From sequence record PZ445489.1: a DNA stretch of 64,000 nt; one strand, written 5' to 3'. The position numbers were made by a program, and so were the translations under genes. Shown here piece after piece: positions 36,060 through 42,828 of this stretch; positions within the stretch are counted from its first letter, which is position 1; each line of letters begins with the position of its first letter. The notes under the pieces were generated by a model, which was not told the origin of the DNA, did not search any database, and worked only from the letters and a program-made list of their open reading frames with translations. The DNA is from a phage.

Positions 36060-36137
36060 GGTTCTCAAGCTCATATGGTATGAGCACCCGGCTCATAACC
36101 GGAAGGTACGTAGGTTCGAATCCTCGGGGAGCCACCA
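36060..36137 (+). tRNA. tRNA-like, anticodon CAU (Met/Ile2), imperfect T stem
   Basis: Acceptor GGTTCTC/GGGAGCC (2 GU), D stem GCTC/GAGC, anticodon loop CTCATAA, T loop TTCGAAT with 2 mismatches in stem. Confidence 0.45.
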
Positions 36138-38379: not shown

Positions 38380-38462
38380 GGGTCGTTAGCCAAGCGGTTT
38401 GGCGGTGGACTGTTAATCCATGTCGAAAGACAACGTAGGTTCGAATCCTACACGGCCCGCCA
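38380..38462 (+). tRNA. tRNA-Asn (GUU) with extended variable region
   Basis: Acceptor GGGTCGT/ACGGCCC, anticodon loop CTGTTAA, T-arm GTAGG-TTCGAAT-CCTAC, CCA. Confidence 0.6.
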
Positions 38463-38564
38463 AATTCTGTGTAGAGTTAAGTAAACCGGTAGCCAACCAG
38501 CTATCATTGCTGACATCGAATTCAGCCACAGATACCATTTTCATTAATAACTGAGGAAACAAGC

Positions 38565-38862: not shown

Positions 38863-39210
38863 ATGATTAATGCTAAAGAAGAATTGTTACTTGCCCTAAA
38901 GAATACTAATTCTGAAGTTAAGTGTATTAAGATAGAATTCGGTTATTATGGAGACAAAGAAGTTTGGGTATTACCCGTAGGTTATACAGAAAAAGATATT
39001 GAAGATTTTCTAAATAATCTAGACTTTAAATATGATTCTGGTTTCGGTGGACAATTGCTTTATGGTAACGTATGGTTTACTGATGGAACTTGGTTAGAAC
39101 GTGGTGAATATGATGGTTCTGAATGGTGGGAATATAAGACTACACCAGCAATTCCAGAGGAATGCCGAACAATTAATGGTGAAGTAGATCGTACTTTACT
39201 ATTAAATTAA
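38863..39210 (+). CDS. hypothetical protein (115 aa)
   Basis: ORF. Confidence 0.5.
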   Translation: MINAKEELLLALKNTNSEVKCIKIEFGYYGDKEVWVLPVGYTEKDIEDFLNNLDFKYDSGFGGQLLYGNVWFTDGTWLERGEYDGSEWWEYKTTPAIPEECRTINGEVDRTLLLN

Positions 39211-39450
39211 CAAAATCTCAGTGCAGAACACGGAGCTAGCAATTCGGAAGTGCTGACTCATGATAAGCTGCCTATGTACTTGCGAAGCGGTCGTGTCCAA
39301 GACTCGGACTCTTGCACTGAAAACAATCAAACATTCTAGCGTGGTTGATGGGGAAACCAGCTTGGCTAGGGCAGAAGCTCGTTCGATTCGAGTGAAAGAA
39401 TGGTTCTCGTAAGTCCGCACAAGTGATAGCAGGTTCGAGTCCTGTCTAGA

Positions 39451-39642
39451 ATGACATATTCTGGAGGTTTTGTGAATTACAAAGAATTAGATCTTTTAGC
39501 AAATAAATTCACAGAGCTATCTGATAACGTTGTATCAAAGGACTCCAACATAGATAATTTTATTACTGAATATCGTGATGGTATAATCTCTAAACAAGAG
39601 TTGTTAGATAAAACGTATAAATATTTAAAGGGGTTCAGCTAA
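39451..39642 (+). CDS. hypothetical protein (63 aa)
   Basis: ORF. Confidence 0.4.
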   Translation: MTYSGGFVNYKELDLLANKFTELSDNVVSKDSNIDNFITEYRDGIISKQELLDKTYKYLKGFS

Positions 39643-39953
39643 ACGGTTAAGCACTGTCCTACTTCGGACAGAGGGAGTAACACGTAGTCTCCCAAACTCC
39701 CCCAAATTTAGATTTCTGCTTCCTAGAGAACGGACTTCTGAATAAACAAGGCGATGAAGTTTCCGGCCGGTTCTAGTCGCTAAAGTCCCTCTAACGGGGC
39801 GTAAGTAAATGAAAGTTTACTTATTATGTAGGTTCCGATAGATCGGCGGGTCTATTCTGGCATTTAAGAGAGGTCTCGCAAACTTCTTTGTCAGCCGTGG
39901 GGTTGGTAGCCTCCAGGTGGCCTACACAATAAGTAAATTTATTAAAAATTCAT

Positions 39954-39982
39954 TTGCTATTCTGCTATATTATCTGTATAAT
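39954..39982 (+). promoter_or_regulatory. early-type promoter
   Basis: TTGCTA-17-TATAAT. Confidence 0.55.
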
Positions 39983-40014
39983 ATATTTTATAAAGTGAAG
40001 AGAAGGAAAGCAAA

Positions 40015-40173
40015 ATGAAACACAAGATAGCTCAAGTTTTTATGACATTATGGTGTATGCCAATAGCTATAACAGCATTTAATCTAGATACTTTTACTAT
40101 AGAAGAAAAATGTATCGGATTAGTTAGCGGCTTTAGTATGCTGGGCTTATCTTTGTTGTGGTTGAAGAAATAA
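40015..40173 (+). CDS. small hydrophobic protein (52 aa, not in ORF track)
   Basis: ATG after GAGAAGGAAAG RBS and promoter; two hydrophobic segments. Confidence 0.35.
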   Translation: MKHKIAQVFMTLWCMPIAITAFNLDTFTIEEKCIGLVSGFSMLGLSLLWLKK

Positions 40174-41432: not shown

Positions 41433-41819
41433 GTGTGTACAAAAACATGTAGAGCCTGTGGGAATGAATATCCGTTAACAACCGAATATTTTTATTCGAA
41501 TGGATTTACTCCTAATGGCACAAAGAAGTGGAAGCCAACATGTAAAGCATGTGAAAAAGCTGAACGAGTAGCTGGACATGAAGAATTAATTAAAGAAGTA
41601 TTTCCTGTATTAGAATGTAGTATTTGTGGATATAATAGGTGTAAACAAGCCCTAGATTTCCACCGTACTAATCCAGAAGAAAAGGAATACTCCATTGCAA
41701 GGTTTAGAACTTCTCGTAGAAACAGAGAAGTAGTAATAGCAGAACTTAAAAAGTGCGTACTATTATGCTCTAACTGCCATAGAGAAGTACATGCTGGATT
41801 AATAAATTTGGGCGAATAG
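41433..41819 (+). CDS. HNH endonuclease
   Basis: C-terminal CVLLCSNCHREVHAG HNH motif plus CxxC pairs; GTG start per ORF track; 3' end overlaps tRNA-Ala. Confidence 0.65.
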   Translation: MCTKTCRACGNEYPLTTEYFYSNGFTPNGTKKWKPTCKACEKAERVAGHEELIKEVFPVLECSICGYNRCKQALDFHRTNPEEKEYSIARFRTSRRNREVVIAELKKCVLLCSNCHREVHAGLINLGE

Positions 41820-42459: not shown

Positions 42460-42828
42460 AAAATTCTTGAAGTATGCCGGAATCGGTAGACGGGGCTGCC
42501 TAAAAGGTTTATAGGGAACATCCACTCCCTGCAACATACCTCATAAAGCGGCTGAGATAAATGGTCTATCTCGTGAAGGTTCAAGTCCTTCTGCTTCTTG
42601 ATACATCTATGGCTCAAAGTGTAACGGTGCTATTTGATGCTCTTGGTAAGACTTCCCCGACATGCGTTCGGGAGTAAGCTGCTAAGACTAGAGTAGAAGA
42701 GTTTCTGAGAGCCGCCACAATTGAAAATTCGTACTCGTCTTGAGCTGCGTGCAATAGGAGATAACTTGATTAGTATTCTAGAACATGCTAATTGAGGAAG
42801 GTTTCGCTAACCCTGCGAGTTTTCAATT

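What the first reader, a model, noticed from the sequence alone, without database searches (positions are those of the whole stretch)
39211..39950. Two further ORF-free structured stretches inside the tRNA cluster
39211-39450 contains two T-arm-like hairpins (GCTCG-TTCGATT-CGAGT and GCAGG-TTCGAGT-CCTGT) and a potential long-range acceptor-like pairing ATTCTAG...CTAGAAT spanning ~115 nt with no CCA, suggesting an interrupted or degenerate tRNA. 39643-39950 has stem-loops (CTGTCC...GGACAG) but no tRNA. A third such gap at 42460-42828 has a T-arm-like GAAGG-TTCAAGT-CCTTC without an acceptor partner. The only ORFs here are spurious minus-strand ones.
Basis: seen in the sequence. Interest (0 to 1): 0.5.

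Follow-up and report, generated by a model that had tools for sequence, protein, structure and literature searches.

The report
Phage T5 tRNA-like stable RNA genes
The "empty" structured stretches in this T5-like phage's tRNA cluster are the genes of the small stable RNAs already annotated in phage T5 (RNA2, RNAIV, RNA1, RNAI, RNAIII), whose function is still unknown, plus one unannotated tRNA-like RNA with an alanine-type acceptor end.

Summary
The window is a T5-like phage tRNA region. The T5 RefSeq, BF23 and phage 5 records annotate these stretches as misc_RNA genes. 39332-39456 is RNA2 ("tRNA-like stable RNA with unknown functions"). 39826-39928 is RNAIV. 42466-42827 holds RNA1, RNAI and RNAIII.

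New here:
- RNA2 is not a decaying tRNA. It is a covariation-supported cloverleaf (acceptor, D-arm, T-arm) whose anticodon loop is replaced by a conserved ~55-nt domain carrying a second T-loop hairpin.
- The family extends across Demerecviridae and into T4-like Acinetobacter phages. Some members end in NCCA.
- No match was found in one representative genome for each of 185,579 bacterial and archaeal species, or in Rfam.
- The CTGTCC...GGACAG hairpin lies inside an unannotated 75-nt cloverleaf (39630-39704) that ends in CCA. Its G3·U70 pair is invariant while neighbouring pairs covary, which resembles alanine acceptor identity.

Function remains unknown. The best guess is non-decoding tRNA mimics, excised by the tRNA-processing machinery. 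Novelty of the finding as given is low. The structural and family results are modestly interesting.

The parts
39217..39321 (+). Unannotated conserved structured stretch upstream of RNA2. A long-range closing stem CUCAGUGCAG/CUUGCACUGA encloses three hairpins, including GUCC-AAGACUC-GGAC next to the 3' strand. It may be a precursor leader or a further small RNA.
   Evidence: 97-99% identical in 30 related loci, and also present directly after a CCA-ended tRNA-like RNA in Epseptimavirus CRW-SP6. Fold z = -1.1 only. There is too little variation for covariation: 0 double changes. Not annotated in T5, BF23 or phage 5.
39332..39456 (+). RNA2 gene (tRNA-like stable RNA). Acceptor 39333-39339/39446-39452. 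D-arm 39342-39359. Anticodon-position stem 39360-39364/39420-39424. Inner helix 39369-39372/39413-39416. T-loop hairpin 1 39377-39393. Invariant strand 39394-39412 (UGAAAGAAUGGUUCUCGUAA). T-arm 39429-39445. Discriminator G 39453. Tail ACA 39454-39456.
   Evidence: Maps base for base onto rna2 of phage 5 (L001 5541-5665) and T5 (L049 4426-4550). Consensus structure and covariation. Covariance model score 148 bits.
39472..39642 (+). Small ORF (56 aa, GTG start, GGAGG Shine-Dalgarno at 39463-39467), equal to ORF trn 2.10.1 of phage 5. Part of an insertion module that is absent from T5 itself.
   Evidence: Annotated in AJ604531. 100% identical in phage 5 and OSYSP, and found in only 4 loci. No Pfam family.
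39630..39704 (+). Unannotated tRNA-like cloverleaf. Acceptor GGGGUUC/AAACUCC with G3·U70 (39632·39698). D-arm GCU-AAACGGUUA-AGC. Anticodon-position hairpin CUGUCC-UACUUC-GGACAG (39654-39671). T-position arm GGGAG-UAACACGUAGU-CUCCC (39673-39693). Discriminator C 39701. CCA 39702-39704. It overlaps the last 13 nt of the ORF.
   Evidence: The minimum-free-energy fold is a cloverleaf, z = -2.5. Homologues exist in NBSal003, phage 5, CRW-SP6, My1, Sugarland and IME260. Acceptor pairs 4:69, 5:68 and 6:67 covary while G3·U70 and CCA are invariant and A73 is kept in every homologue (C73 in this window). Model R2 scores 81-99 bits against 24 bits for real tRNAs. 99 phage records match, none annotated.
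39705..39825 (+). Unannotated spacer or possible RNA. It follows tRNA-Gly(GCC) in BF23 and Epseptimavirus, and follows the 39630-39704 tRNA-like RNA here. It ends in the hairpin AAGUAAA-UGAAAG-UUUACUU.
   Evidence: 85-99% identical in 8 loci. Fold z = -2.4. Only 1 double-change pair. Unannotated in BF23.
39826..39928 (+). RNAIV gene (stable RNA of unknown function). Terminal stem UGUAGG/CCUACA closes three hairpins.
   Evidence: Maps onto rnaIV of phage 5, T5 and BF23. 94-100% identical in Tequintavirus and 87-90% in Epseptimavirus. 4 double-change pairs in the consensus fold. Fold z = -2.0.
39954..39982 (+). Promoter P13a (-35 TTGCTA, 17-nt spacer, -10 TATAAT). It starts the next transcription unit, so 39929-39950 is promoter-upstream DNA and not RNA.
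   Evidence: Best sigma-70 match in the scan, 10 of 12. Coincides with "promoter P13a" annotated in phage 5, T5 and BF23.
42466..42610 (+). RNA1 gene (tRNA-like stable RNA). A class-II-tRNA-like scaffold with a tRNA-Leu-type D-loop GGAAUCGGUAGAC, a variable-arm hairpin and the T-arm GAAGG-UUCAAGU-CCUUC, with an enlarged anticodon-position domain.
   Evidence: Maps onto rna1 of phage 5 and T5. 9 double-change pairs in the consensus fold of 20 sequences.
42611..42717 (+). RNAI gene (stable RNA). Terminal stem GGCUC/GAGCC followed by GCCA.
42722..42827 (+). RNAIII gene (stable RNA). Terminal stem UGAAAAUUCG/CGAGUUUUCA, directly followed by tRNA-His.

Best explanation
The stretches are genes for small stable non-coding RNAs of the T5 phage family. 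They lie on the same strand as the tRNAs and between the same promoters.

- 39332-39456 encodes RNA2.
- 39826-39928 encodes RNAIV.
- 42466-42827 encodes RNA1, RNAI and RNAIII.
- 39630-39704 encodes a further, unannotated tRNA-like RNA.

Shown:
- They map onto the annotated misc_RNA genes.
- RNA2 folds as a tRNA cloverleaf in which the anticodon loop is replaced by a conserved ~55-nt domain. That domain holds a short helix, a second T-loop hairpin and an invariant 20-nt strand.
- The 39630-39704 RNA is a cloverleaf with a conserved G3·U70 pair and a CCA end (A73 in all homologues, C73 here), and with a freely varying anticodon-position arm.

Inferred:
- All are made as parts of the polycistronic tRNA precursors.
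- They are cut out by the host tRNA-processing enzymes (RNase P at the 5' side of the terminal stem, RNase E and exonucleases at the 3' side), because each carries an acceptor-like terminal stem, most with a T-arm beside it. That is also why they accumulate as stable RNAs.
- They cannot decode, having no 7-nt anticodon loop. The most likely role is that of tRNA mimics.
- RNA2 would use the tRNA body as a scaffold and stability module. It would present its conserved domain, or a second elbow-like T-loop/GG surface, to some tRNA-recognising host or phage factor.
- The 39630-39704 RNA would offer an alanine-type acceptor end to AlaRS, EF-Tu or tmRNA partners.
- A role in countering host tRNA-directed defences fits the known biology of this dispensable "tRNA-rich region", but it is not demonstrated.
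For: - Identity: alignment to phage 5 is 98-99% identical, and the annotated rna2, rnaIV, rna1, rnaI and rnaIII features fall exactly on the gaps. The same features are in T5 RefSeq NC_005859, with RNA2 labelled "tRNA-like stable RNA with unknown functions", and in BF23.
- RNA2 structure: RNAalifold independently finds the acceptor, D, anticodon-position, inner and T helices. On 19 distinct sequences 94.5% of cells pair. 23 of 30 pairs show double changes. No shuffle of 500 reaches the observed values. Slid controls give 31-43%.
- tRNA likeness: model R1 hits true tRNAs over its full length at 14-31 bits, while family members score 59-150 bits.
- Selection on RNA2: homologues occur in Tequintavirus, Epseptimavirus, Klebsiella, Pantoea, Pectobacterium and Serratia Demerecviridae, and in Acinetobacter Straboviridae (133, ZZ1, Acj9, AB1I1M-1). 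The insert strand CNCGUAA-UCCGCA is nearly invariant.
- 3' ends: Klebsiella and Pantoea versions end in N+CCA.
- The 39630-39704 RNA.
- Terminal stems of all T5 stable RNAs.
- Transcription unit: no promoter-like site better than 9 of 12 between tRNA-Asp and RNAIV. P13a lies just downstream.
- Context: deleting the ~8-kb tRNA-rich region of T5-like phages leaves them viable but lowers infectivity on retron-carrying hosts (PMC11555353). A T5 tRNA neutralises PARIS (PMC11464382, title).
Against: - No expression or end-mapping data were available here. "Stable RNA" rests on the depositors' annotation.
- RNA2 alone does not fold better than shuffles (z = -0.85), so the support comes from comparison, not energy.
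- This window's RNA2 ends in ACA, not CCA. Its acceptor sequence and discriminator are not conserved across the family, which argues against aminoacylation of RNA2.
- This window's copy of the 39630-39704 RNA has C73 and a C7xA66 mismatch, where its relatives have A73 and a full stem. It may be a weakened copy.
- No conserved protein neighbour was found, and no antisense target in the window. No partner is known.
- The region is dispensable in the laboratory, so any function is conditional.
Confidence: 0.8

Rival explanations
1. The RNAs act only in cis. They would be tRNA-shaped "punctuation" that recruits RNase P and RNase E to cut the polycistronic transcript. That would release or stabilise the neighbouring small-ORF mRNAs and tRNAs. 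The excised pieces would be by-products without a function of their own.
For: - Every element has an acceptor-like terminal stem.
- RNA2 ends 6 nt before the Shine-Dalgarno of ORF trn 2.10.1.
- The elements behave as shuffled modules joined at CCA-AAU-type junctions.
Against: - A processing signal needs only the acceptor/T-arm minihelix. In RNA2 the most conserved part is the 55-nt insert, kept from T5-like phages to Acinetobacter T4-like phages in different gene neighbourhoods.
- In T5 itself RNA2 is followed by RNAIV, not by an ORF.
Confidence: 0.25
2. They are decaying tRNA pseudogenes and recombination scars left by homing-endonuclease traffic in the tRNA cluster, with no function.
For: - Neither tRNA finder calls them.
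- The cluster is mosaic and carries HNH endonuclease genes.
- There are three different layouts between RNA2 and RNAIV.
- This window's 39630-39704 copy has two weakening changes.
Against: - Strong purifying selection and compensatory changes in all helices of RNA2 across two phage families.
- 96.8-100% identity of RNA2 in Tequintavirus, while the end of the adjacent CDS diverges between this window and phage 5.
- G3·U70 is kept as a wobble pair while its neighbours covary.
- The depositors annotate stable transcripts.
Confidence: 0.04
3. RNA2 is an intron-containing tRNA precursor. The ~55-nt insert would be removed to give a decoding tRNA.
For: - The insert sits exactly where the anticodon loop should be.
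- The internal loop left around it is 4+3 = 7 nt (GCUA...GCA).
Against: - The 7 nt (GCUAGCA) lack U33 and vary.
- The insert is too short for a group I intron and has no bulge-helix-bulge motif.
- No Rfam intron or ribozyme match at E<=10.
- The depositors annotate the stable species at 125 nt, the unspliced length.
- The insert, not the would-be anticodon, is what is conserved.
Confidence: 0.03
4. One or both tRNA-like RNAs are aminoacylated and enter the ribosome or a rescue pathway, like a miniature tmRNA tRNA-like domain. They could for example compete with tmRNA-SmpB or deliver alanine.
For: - The 39630-39704 family keeps G1-C72, G2-C71, G3·U70 and CCA, with A73 in all homologues (C73 in this window). 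From established knowledge, that is the alanine identity set shared by tRNA-Ala and tmRNA.
- Some RNA2 homologues end in NCCA.
- In phage ZZ1 the RNA2 homologue sits next to an RF-1-domain protein.
Against: - ARAGORN finds no tmRNA.
- There is no conserved reading frame in RNA2, because indels break the frame between lineages.
- The RF-1 neighbour is found only in ZZ1.
- RNA2 acceptor stems and discriminators vary freely.
- This window's copy of the 39630-39704 RNA has C73.
Confidence: 0.08

Closest known systems
Bacteriophage T5 / BF23 / phage 5 RNA2 (gene rna2, misc_RNA T5s06 in NC_005859)
   Same: Same gene. Same position (after the T5.067 homologue and a 121-nt conserved stretch, before RNAIV and promoter P13a), same 125-nt extent, 96.8-98.4% identity.
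   Different: Nothing essential. In this window, as in phage 5, NBSal003, OSYSP and Elw, an ORF plus two extra non-coding modules are inserted between RNA2 and RNAIV. In T5 they are 18 nt apart.
T5 RNAIV, RNA1, RNAI, RNAIII (genes rnaIV, rna1, rnaI, rnaIII)
   Same: Same genes at 39826-39928 and 42466-42827. 85-100% identical to the T5, BF23 and phage 5 copies.
   Different: None found. Their function is unknown in the source records as well.
Phage T4 species 1 and species 2 RNAs (rnaC, rnaD)
   Same: Small stable RNAs of unknown function encoded inside a phage tRNA cluster. They have a T-arm-like hairpin and a terminal stem, next to a homing-endonuclease gene.
   Different: No sequence similarity was seen by eye. 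The RNA2 model finds only the true tRNAs in the T4 region. The RNA2 relatives in T4-like phages are in Acinetobacter phages, not in T4.
Canonical tRNA (Rfam RF00005)
   Same: 7-bp acceptor stem, a 2-nt linker, a 4-bp D-stem with a GG-containing loop, a stem at the anticodon position, a 4-nt variable region, and a 5-bp T-stem with a UUCGAGU loop. Models R1 and R2 cross-hit real tRNAs.
   Different: No 7-nt anticodon loop. RNA2 has ~55 nt there. The 39630-39704 RNA has a 6-nt loop there and an 11-nt loop in the T position. Neither is detected by ARAGORN or RF00005 even at E<=10. RNA2 here ends in ACA.
tmRNA tRNA-like domain and alanine-accepting minihelices
   Same: For 39630-39704: a G3·U70 wobble in a GGG.../...UCC acceptor stem and CCA (A73 in the homologues, C73 here), with no decoding function. 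The comparison with alanine identity rests on established knowledge of AlaRS recognition.
   Different: No mRNA-like tag frame and no pseudoknots. It is 75 nt against more than 250 nt. It has a D-stem. ARAGORN's tmRNA search is negative. Charging is untested.
Bacterial Y-RNA-like YrlA, mascRNA, and plant mitochondrial t-elements (tRNA-like modules used for processing or protein binding)
   Same: Non-decoding RNAs that borrow the tRNA acceptor/T-arm fold and are handled by tRNA-processing enzymes. This is a resemblance from general knowledge and was not tested.
   Different: No Rfam match to any such family. The conserved insert of RNA2 has no counterpart in them.

Membership tests
T5-family RNA2 (rna2 misc_RNA) | Sequence colinear with the annotated rna2 of T5, BF23 and phage 5 | tested here: met
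   Window 39332-39456 aligns to L001 5541-5665 with 2 differences, and to T5 L049 4426-4550 at 96.8%.
T5-family RNA2 (rna2 misc_RNA) | Same genomic position: downstream of the ORF trn 2.10 / T5.067 homologue, upstream of RNAIV and promoter P13a, on the tRNA strand | tested here: met
T5-family RNA2 (rna2 misc_RNA) | Accumulates as a stable ~125-nt RNA in infected cells | not testable with these tools
   Rests on the depositors' annotation, "tRNA-like stable RNA". No expression data are available here.
T5-family RNAIV / RNA1 / RNAI / RNAIII | Sequence colinear with the annotated features | tested here: met
   Coordinates 39826-39928, 42466-42610, 42611-42717 and 42722-42827.
Canonical tRNA | Cloverleaf with acceptor, D, anticodon and T arms supported by covariation | tested here: met
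   RNA2. The 39630-39704 RNA.
Canonical tRNA | 7-nt anticodon loop with U33 and a readable anticodon | tested here: not met
   RNA2 has ~55 nt between the strands of the anticodon-position stem. The 39630-39704 RNA has a 6-nt loop UACUUC, and its homologues have arms of 21-30 nt.
Canonical tRNA | Recognised by tRNA gene finders or Rfam RF00005 | tested here: not met
   No ARAGORN call, no RF00005 hit at gathering score, and none at E<=10 in 39150-40020.
Canonical tRNA | 3' NCCA end (encoded in the T5 tRNA genes) | tested here: inconclusive
   RNA2 here ends G+ACA, while Klebsiella and Pantoea homologues end U/A+CCA. 39630-39704 ends C+CCA. Post-transcriptional CCA addition is untestable here.
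tmRNA | tRNA-like domain with G3·U70 plus a tag reading frame and pseudoknots; found by ARAGORN | tested here: not met
   ARAGORN finds no tmRNA. RNA2 lacks G3·U70, and its only UAA-terminated frame is broken by indels between lineages. 39630-39704 has G3·U70 but is only 75 nt, with no frame.
Alanine-accepting tRNA-like RNA (39630-39704 family) | G3·U70 in the acceptor stem, A73, CCA | tested here: inconclusive
   G3·U70 and CCA are present in all 6 sequences (4 lineages) while 4:69, 5:68 and 6:67 covary. A73 is present in 5 of 6, and C73 in this window. Actual charging by AlaRS could not be tested.
tRNA pseudogene | Neutral decay: helices not maintained, no conservation beyond close relatives | tested here: not met
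   Compensatory changes occur in 23 of 30 RNA2 pairs across two phage families. The insert is nearly invariant.
T4 species 1 / species 2 RNA (rnaC / rnaD) | Sequence or structure homology to T4 rnaC or rnaD | tested here: not met
   Model R1 finds only tRNAs in the T4 region L005. No shared motif by inspection.

The most novel reading that the evidence does not exclude
The evidence does not exclude that T5-like phages, and through horizontal transfer T4-like Acinetobacter phages, carry two dedicated families of non-decoding tRNA mimics that act in trans.

1. RNA2 would be a tRNA scaffold whose anticodon end is rebuilt into a second T-loop/GG "elbow", perhaps locked to the D-loop by a GGGGA/UUCUC tertiary helix. 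It would serve as a decoy or adaptor for a tRNA-elbow-binding factor, such as RNase P, a modification enzyme, or a tRNA-cleaving defence nuclease.
2. The unannotated 75-nt RNA would have an alanine-identity acceptor end and be charged by AlaRS without ever decoding. It would titrate or hijack AlaRS, EF-Tu or SmpB, or donate alanine.

Either would give a function to RNAs left unexplained since the 1980s.
Probability: 0.15. Interest if true: 0.7.

Novelty: already known. Interest (0 to 1): 0.35.

Why it matters
As reported, the finding rediscovers genes that have sat in the T5 reference annotation for two decades, so it does not change the picture. What could matter is that these RNAs have no known function, and they lie in a region now known to carry anti-defence tRNAs.

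This work supplies several things:
- a covariation-supported architecture for RNA2;
- evidence that RNA2 is under selection in two phage families and was not found in cellular genomes;
- an additional, unannotated CCA-ended tRNA-like family with an alanine-type acceptor stem.

These give concrete, cheap experiments: deletions tested on defence panels, AlaRS charging assays and pull-downs. They also give a ready seed alignment for a new RNA family entry.

Tried and rejected
- **Rfam.** Scans at gathering score over the whole window, and at E<=10 over 39150-40020, found nothing on the + strand. The only hits were a chance antisense HPnc0260 match driven by the T-arm, and SNORD45 inside the ORF.
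- **T4 rnaC/rnaD homology.** No similarity by inspection. Model R1 hits only tRNAs in T4.
- **tmRNA-like tag frame in RNA2** (AAA GAA UGG UUC UCG UAA). Rejected because Klebsiella (-1 nt) and Pectobacterium (+5 nt) indels break the frame.
- **CUCGUAA as an anticodon-loop mimic** (C32 U33 CGU A37 A38). Rejected because the would-be U33 is A or G in Acinetobacter phages, and the flanks pair with helix 4 instead.
- **A helix between AGAA and UUCU around T-hairpin 1.** The registers differ between lineages, so it is not supported (inspection).
- **D-loop GGGGA / UUCUC pseudoknot.** It is compatible in 18 of 19 sequences, with G·U, U-A, U·G and A-U at the variable position. However, the 5' strand was chosen by hand and Acj9 breaks it (A x A). 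It is kept only as tentative.
- **Conserved protein partner.** The RF-1-domain gene is next to the RNA only in ZZ1. Other neighbours have no Pfam hit or are GIY-YIG-like (T5orf172/MUG113).
- **Antisense target of the invariant strand within the window.** The only + strand match needs 3 mismatches in 16.
- **Cellular origin.** The RNA2 motif is absent from one representative genome for each of 185,579 bacterial and archaeal species. The T-position motif of the second family gave one match in a MAG with no tRNA-like context, taken as chance.
- **Paralogy to a particular window tRNA.** No convincing closest tRNA for either RNA.
- **Relaxed viral-contig pattern scans.** They returned the same 29 loci.
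- **Literature.** The held library has no paper on the T5 stable RNAs themselves.
Full report
**What the window is.** ARAGORN finds 23 tRNA genes and Rfam 24, all on the + strand between 32.3 and 44.5 kb. Megablast of 38800-40300 hits 440 phage records, all T5-like. The best are Escherichia phage vB_EcoD-Elw at 99.2% and OSYSP at 97.5%. The window is therefore the tRNA region of a Tequintavirus.

**Checking the observation.**
- Hairpin GCTCG-TTCGATT-CGAGT lies at 39377-39393.
- Hairpin GCAGG-TTCGAGT-CCTGT lies at 39429-39445.
- ATTCTAG (39333-39339) pairs with CTAGAAT (39446-39452), followed by G and ACA.
- CTGTCC-TACTTC-GGACAG lies at 39654-39671.
- GAAGG-TTCAAGT-CCTTC lies at 42575-42591.

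No tRNA is called in the gaps, and Rfam gives nothing meaningful at E<=10 over 39150-40020.

**What the stretches are.** One megablast hit, AJ604531 ("Bacteriophage 5 tRNA gene region"), carries detailed curated-looking annotation.

| Feature | Depositors' note | Window coordinates |
|---|---|---|
| rna2 | tRNA-like RNA with unknown functions | 39332-39456 |
| rnaIV | stable RNA with unknown functions | 39826-39928 |
| rna1 | tRNA-like RNA with unknown functions | 42466-42610 |
| rnaI | stable RNA with unknown functions | 42611-42717 |
| rnaIII | stable RNA with unknown functions | 42722-42827 |

The last three tile the third gap up to tRNA-His. The same features are in the T5 RefSeq record NC_005859, where rna2 is "tRNA-like stable RNA with unknown functions", and in BF23 AJ604530. 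The -35/-10 pair at 39954-39982 is the annotated promoter P13a and the best sigma-70 match in the region. So 39929-39950 is promoter-upstream DNA. The finding as given rediscovers known genes of unknown function.

**RNA2 in detail.** BLAST and motif scans recovered homologues well beyond Tequintavirus.
- Epseptimavirus: Sepoy and CRW-SP6.
- Klebsiella Sugarland-like phages.
- Pantoea phage AAS21.
- Pectobacterium phage My1.
- Serratia phage Kamaji.
- An uncultivated 109-kb viral contig.
- T4-like Acinetobacter phages 133, ZZ1, Acj9 and AB1I1M-1. There the element also sits in or beside the tRNA cluster in three of the four (133, Acj9, AB1I1M-1); in ZZ1 it follows a protein-coding gene about 500 nt downstream of a lone tRNA-Trp.

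RNAalifold on 13 sequences predicts five helices on its own:
- a 7-bp acceptor stem;
- a D-stem, 5 bp as predicted (4 bp in the tested structure);
- a 5-bp stem at the anticodon position;
- a 4-bp inner helix;
- a 5-bp T-stem.

Adding the first T-loop hairpin gives 30 pairs. A covariance model was built from this structure (R1) and used to realign 19 distinct members. On that alignment:
- 94.5% of cells form standard pairs, against 74.9% in column shuffles;
- 23 of 30 pairs show changes on both sides;
- no shuffle of 500 reaches the observed values;
- sliding the 3' partners by 1-3 columns drops pairing to 31-43%.

The alignment was fitted to the model. However, the MAFFT-only alignment gave the same picture: 93.8% paired, 18 double-change pairs.

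The architecture is a tRNA cloverleaf. It has an acceptor stem, a 2-nt linker, a D-arm with a GGGG loop, a 4-nt variable region and a true T-arm. The 7-nt anticodon loop is replaced by about 55 nt:
- an internal loop, GCUA/GCA;
- helix GGGC/GUCC, whose closing pair switches between C-G and U-A;
- a second hairpin with a canonical T-loop, UUCGAUU;
- a nearly invariant strand, UGAAAGAAUGGUUCNCGUAA.

Model R1 scores family members at 59-150 bits. It scores genuine tRNAs over its full length at 14-31 bits, with nothing in between. That confirms both the tRNA likeness and the distinctness of the family.

The 3' ends differ between lineages:
- G+ACA in this window and other Tequintavirus;
- U+CCA in Klebsiella phages;
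- A+CCA in Pantoea;
- A/U-rich ends without CCA in the Acinetobacter phages.

Acceptor sequence and discriminator are not conserved, so a fixed amino-acid identity for RNA2 is unlikely. The RNA2 motif is absent from one representative genome for each of 185,579 bacterial and archaeal species. RNA2 is therefore a selected, phage-specific, non-decoding tRNA-shaped RNA. It is not a decaying tRNA.

A tertiary helix between the D-loop GGGGA and UUCUC of the invariant strand is compatible with 18 of 19 sequences. It shows G·U, U-A, U·G and A-U at the one variable position. I picked the 5' strand by hand and Acj9 breaks it, so I treat it as tentative.

**The stretch 39643-39825.** In T5 itself RNA2 and RNAIV are only 18 nt apart. 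There are three layouts between them.
- T5 type: an 18-nt spacer.
- BF23 and Epseptimavirus type: tRNA-Gly(GCC) plus a ~120-147-nt unannotated spacer.
- The type in this window, shared with phage 5, NBSal003, OSYSP and Elw: a 56-aa ORF (39472-39642) with a good Shine-Dalgarno, then 39630-39704, then the same spacer at 39705-39825.

The element at 39630-39704 thus occupies the slot that tRNA-Gly holds elsewhere. It is joined at the same ...CCA-AAUUUAG junction.

This element folds by minimum free energy into a cloverleaf, z = -2.5. Its parts are:
- acceptor GGGGUUC/AAACUCC;
- D-arm GCU-AAACGGUUA-AGC;
- a T-position arm GGGAG-UAACACGUAGU-CUCCC with an 11-nt loop;
- then C and CCA.

Homologues in NBSal003, phage 5, CRW-SP6, My1, Sugarland and IME260 keep the D-arm, the odd T-position arm, CCA and A73. 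Their anticodon-position arm ranges from 18 to 30 nt with unrelated sequence. In the acceptor stem, pairs 4:69 (G-C/A-U), 5:68 (U-A/C-G) and 6:67 (U-A/C-G) change in a compensatory way. G1-C72, G2-C71 and the G3·U70 wobble are invariant.

From established knowledge, G3·U70 with A73 is the alanine identity set used by AlaRS on tRNA-Ala, tmRNA and minihelices. Whether these RNAs are charged cannot be tested here. This window's copy has C73 and a C7xA66 mismatch. A model of the family (R2) scores members at 81-99 bits and real tRNAs at 24 bits. It finds no copy in T5 or BF23.

BLAST finds the family in 99 phage records, 73 of them Klebsiella phages, and none is annotated. The one match in bacterial genome contigs lacks any tRNA-like context and is taken as chance.

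**The remaining pieces.**
- RNAIV has a terminal stem closing three hairpins, with 4 double-change pairs among 28 sequences.
- RNA1 has 9 double-change pairs. It looks like a class-II tRNA, with a tRNA-Leu-type D-loop, a variable-arm hairpin and a T-arm, and with an enlarged anticodon-position domain. It shares the design principle of RNA2.
- RNAI ends in GAGCC-G-CCA.
- RNAIII has a 10-bp terminal stem.
- The 121 nt upstream of RNA2 (39211-39331) are 97-99% conserved and can form a closing stem with three hairpins. There is too little variation to test this.
- The same is largely true of 39705-39825.

**How it probably works.** Shown: identity with annotated stable-RNA genes, structures under selection, and tRNA-like scaffolds that cannot decode.

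Inferred from the anatomy and from general knowledge of tRNA maturation: the RNAs are transcribed within the polycistronic tRNA precursors. No good promoter lies between tRNA-Asp and RNAIV, and P13a follows. They are released by RNase P and 3' processing, because each ends in an acceptor-like stem. They are stable for the same reason.

The strong conservation of the RNA2 insert across different gene neighbourhoods argues for a trans-acting role of that domain, presented on a tRNA body. The most economical idea is mimicry of tRNA towards a tRNA-recognising factor.

The region is dispensable in the laboratory but helps T5-like phages against retron defences through a tRNA and an ORF (PMC11555353). 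A T5 tRNA also neutralises PARIS (PMC11464382). Those facts make an anti-defence or host-takeover role plausible, but nothing here shows it.

I found no conserved protein neighbour. An RF-1-domain gene adjoins the RNA only in ZZ1. I found no antisense target in the window either.

**Rivals.**
- A purely cis-acting punctuation role remains possible, and I rate it second.
- Pseudogene decay is contradicted by the covariation.
- A spliced tRNA precursor is contradicted by the 125-nt annotated species and by the loop sequence.
- A tmRNA-like role for RNA2 is contradicted by the frame-breaking indels. It stays open, at low probability, for the alanine-type RNA.

**Verdict.** The objects are already known and annotated, so the novelty of the finding itself is low. 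By-products with some value are the RNA2 structure and its cross-family distribution, the three module layouts, and the unannotated CCA-ended tRNA-like family with a conserved G3·U70.

Noticed in passing
window 36060-36134: Rfam calls a tRNA here at 40.3 bits that ARAGORN misses. It corresponds to the annotated tRNA-Ile2 (anticodon CAU) of T5 and phage 5.
   Followed up: partly
window 38465-38537: This is the homologue of T5 RNA3 ("putative tRNA-like RNA", 73 nt, ends ...CACAGAUACCA), directly after tRNA-Asn. It is identical to the T5 and phage 5 copies. A mechanical ORF (38420-38554) overlaps it and is probably spurious.
   Followed up: partly
window 39456-39826 compared with L049 4550-4569, L057 574-802 and L002 732-940: There are three alternative module layouts between RNA2 and RNAIV in T5-like phages: an 18-nt spacer; tRNA-Gly(GCC) plus a spacer; or an ORF plus a CCA-ended tRNA-like RNA plus the spacer. 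The modules are joined at ...CCA-AAU junctions, which suggests cassette exchange by recombination at tRNA 3' ends.
   Followed up: partly
L050 (Acinetobacter phage ZZ1) 603-712 and 728-958: The RNA2 homologue of ZZ1 is followed 16 nt later by a 76-aa protein with an RF-1 (peptidyl-tRNA hydrolase / release-factor) domain (Pfam E = 3e-10). The equally long ORFs next to the RNA in Acj9 and phage 133 have no such hit, so the link is not conserved.
   Followed up: partly
L031 (Klebsiella phage K7_rec10) 829-1338: The gene just downstream of the Klebsiella RNA2 homologue has a T5orf172/MUG113 (GIY-YIG-like) domain. This is another putative homing endonuclease embedded in a phage tRNA cluster.
   Followed up: no
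window 41433-41819: A 128-aa ORF rich in Cys pairs that ends ...CSNCHREVH, which looks like an HNH endonuclease. Its 3' end overlaps the start of tRNA-Ala (41810), as the heg genes do in T5. It was not checked against Pfam.
   Followed up: no
window 39678-39688 with 39641-39649: In the 39630-39704 RNA, the D-loop CGGUU is complementary to the 11-nt T-position loop AAC(A)CG if one A is bulged. That could be an elbow-like kissing contact. Sugarland's A-to-G change would give a U·G pair, but My1's U-to-G change is uncompensated, so this is unresolved.
   Followed up: partly
window 39424-39567, minus strand: There is a weak Rfam match to the Helicobacter antisense RNA HPnc0260 (28.6 bits against a gathering score of 59, E = 1.2). 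It is driven by the reverse complement of the RNA2 T-arm and is taken as chance.
   Followed up: yes
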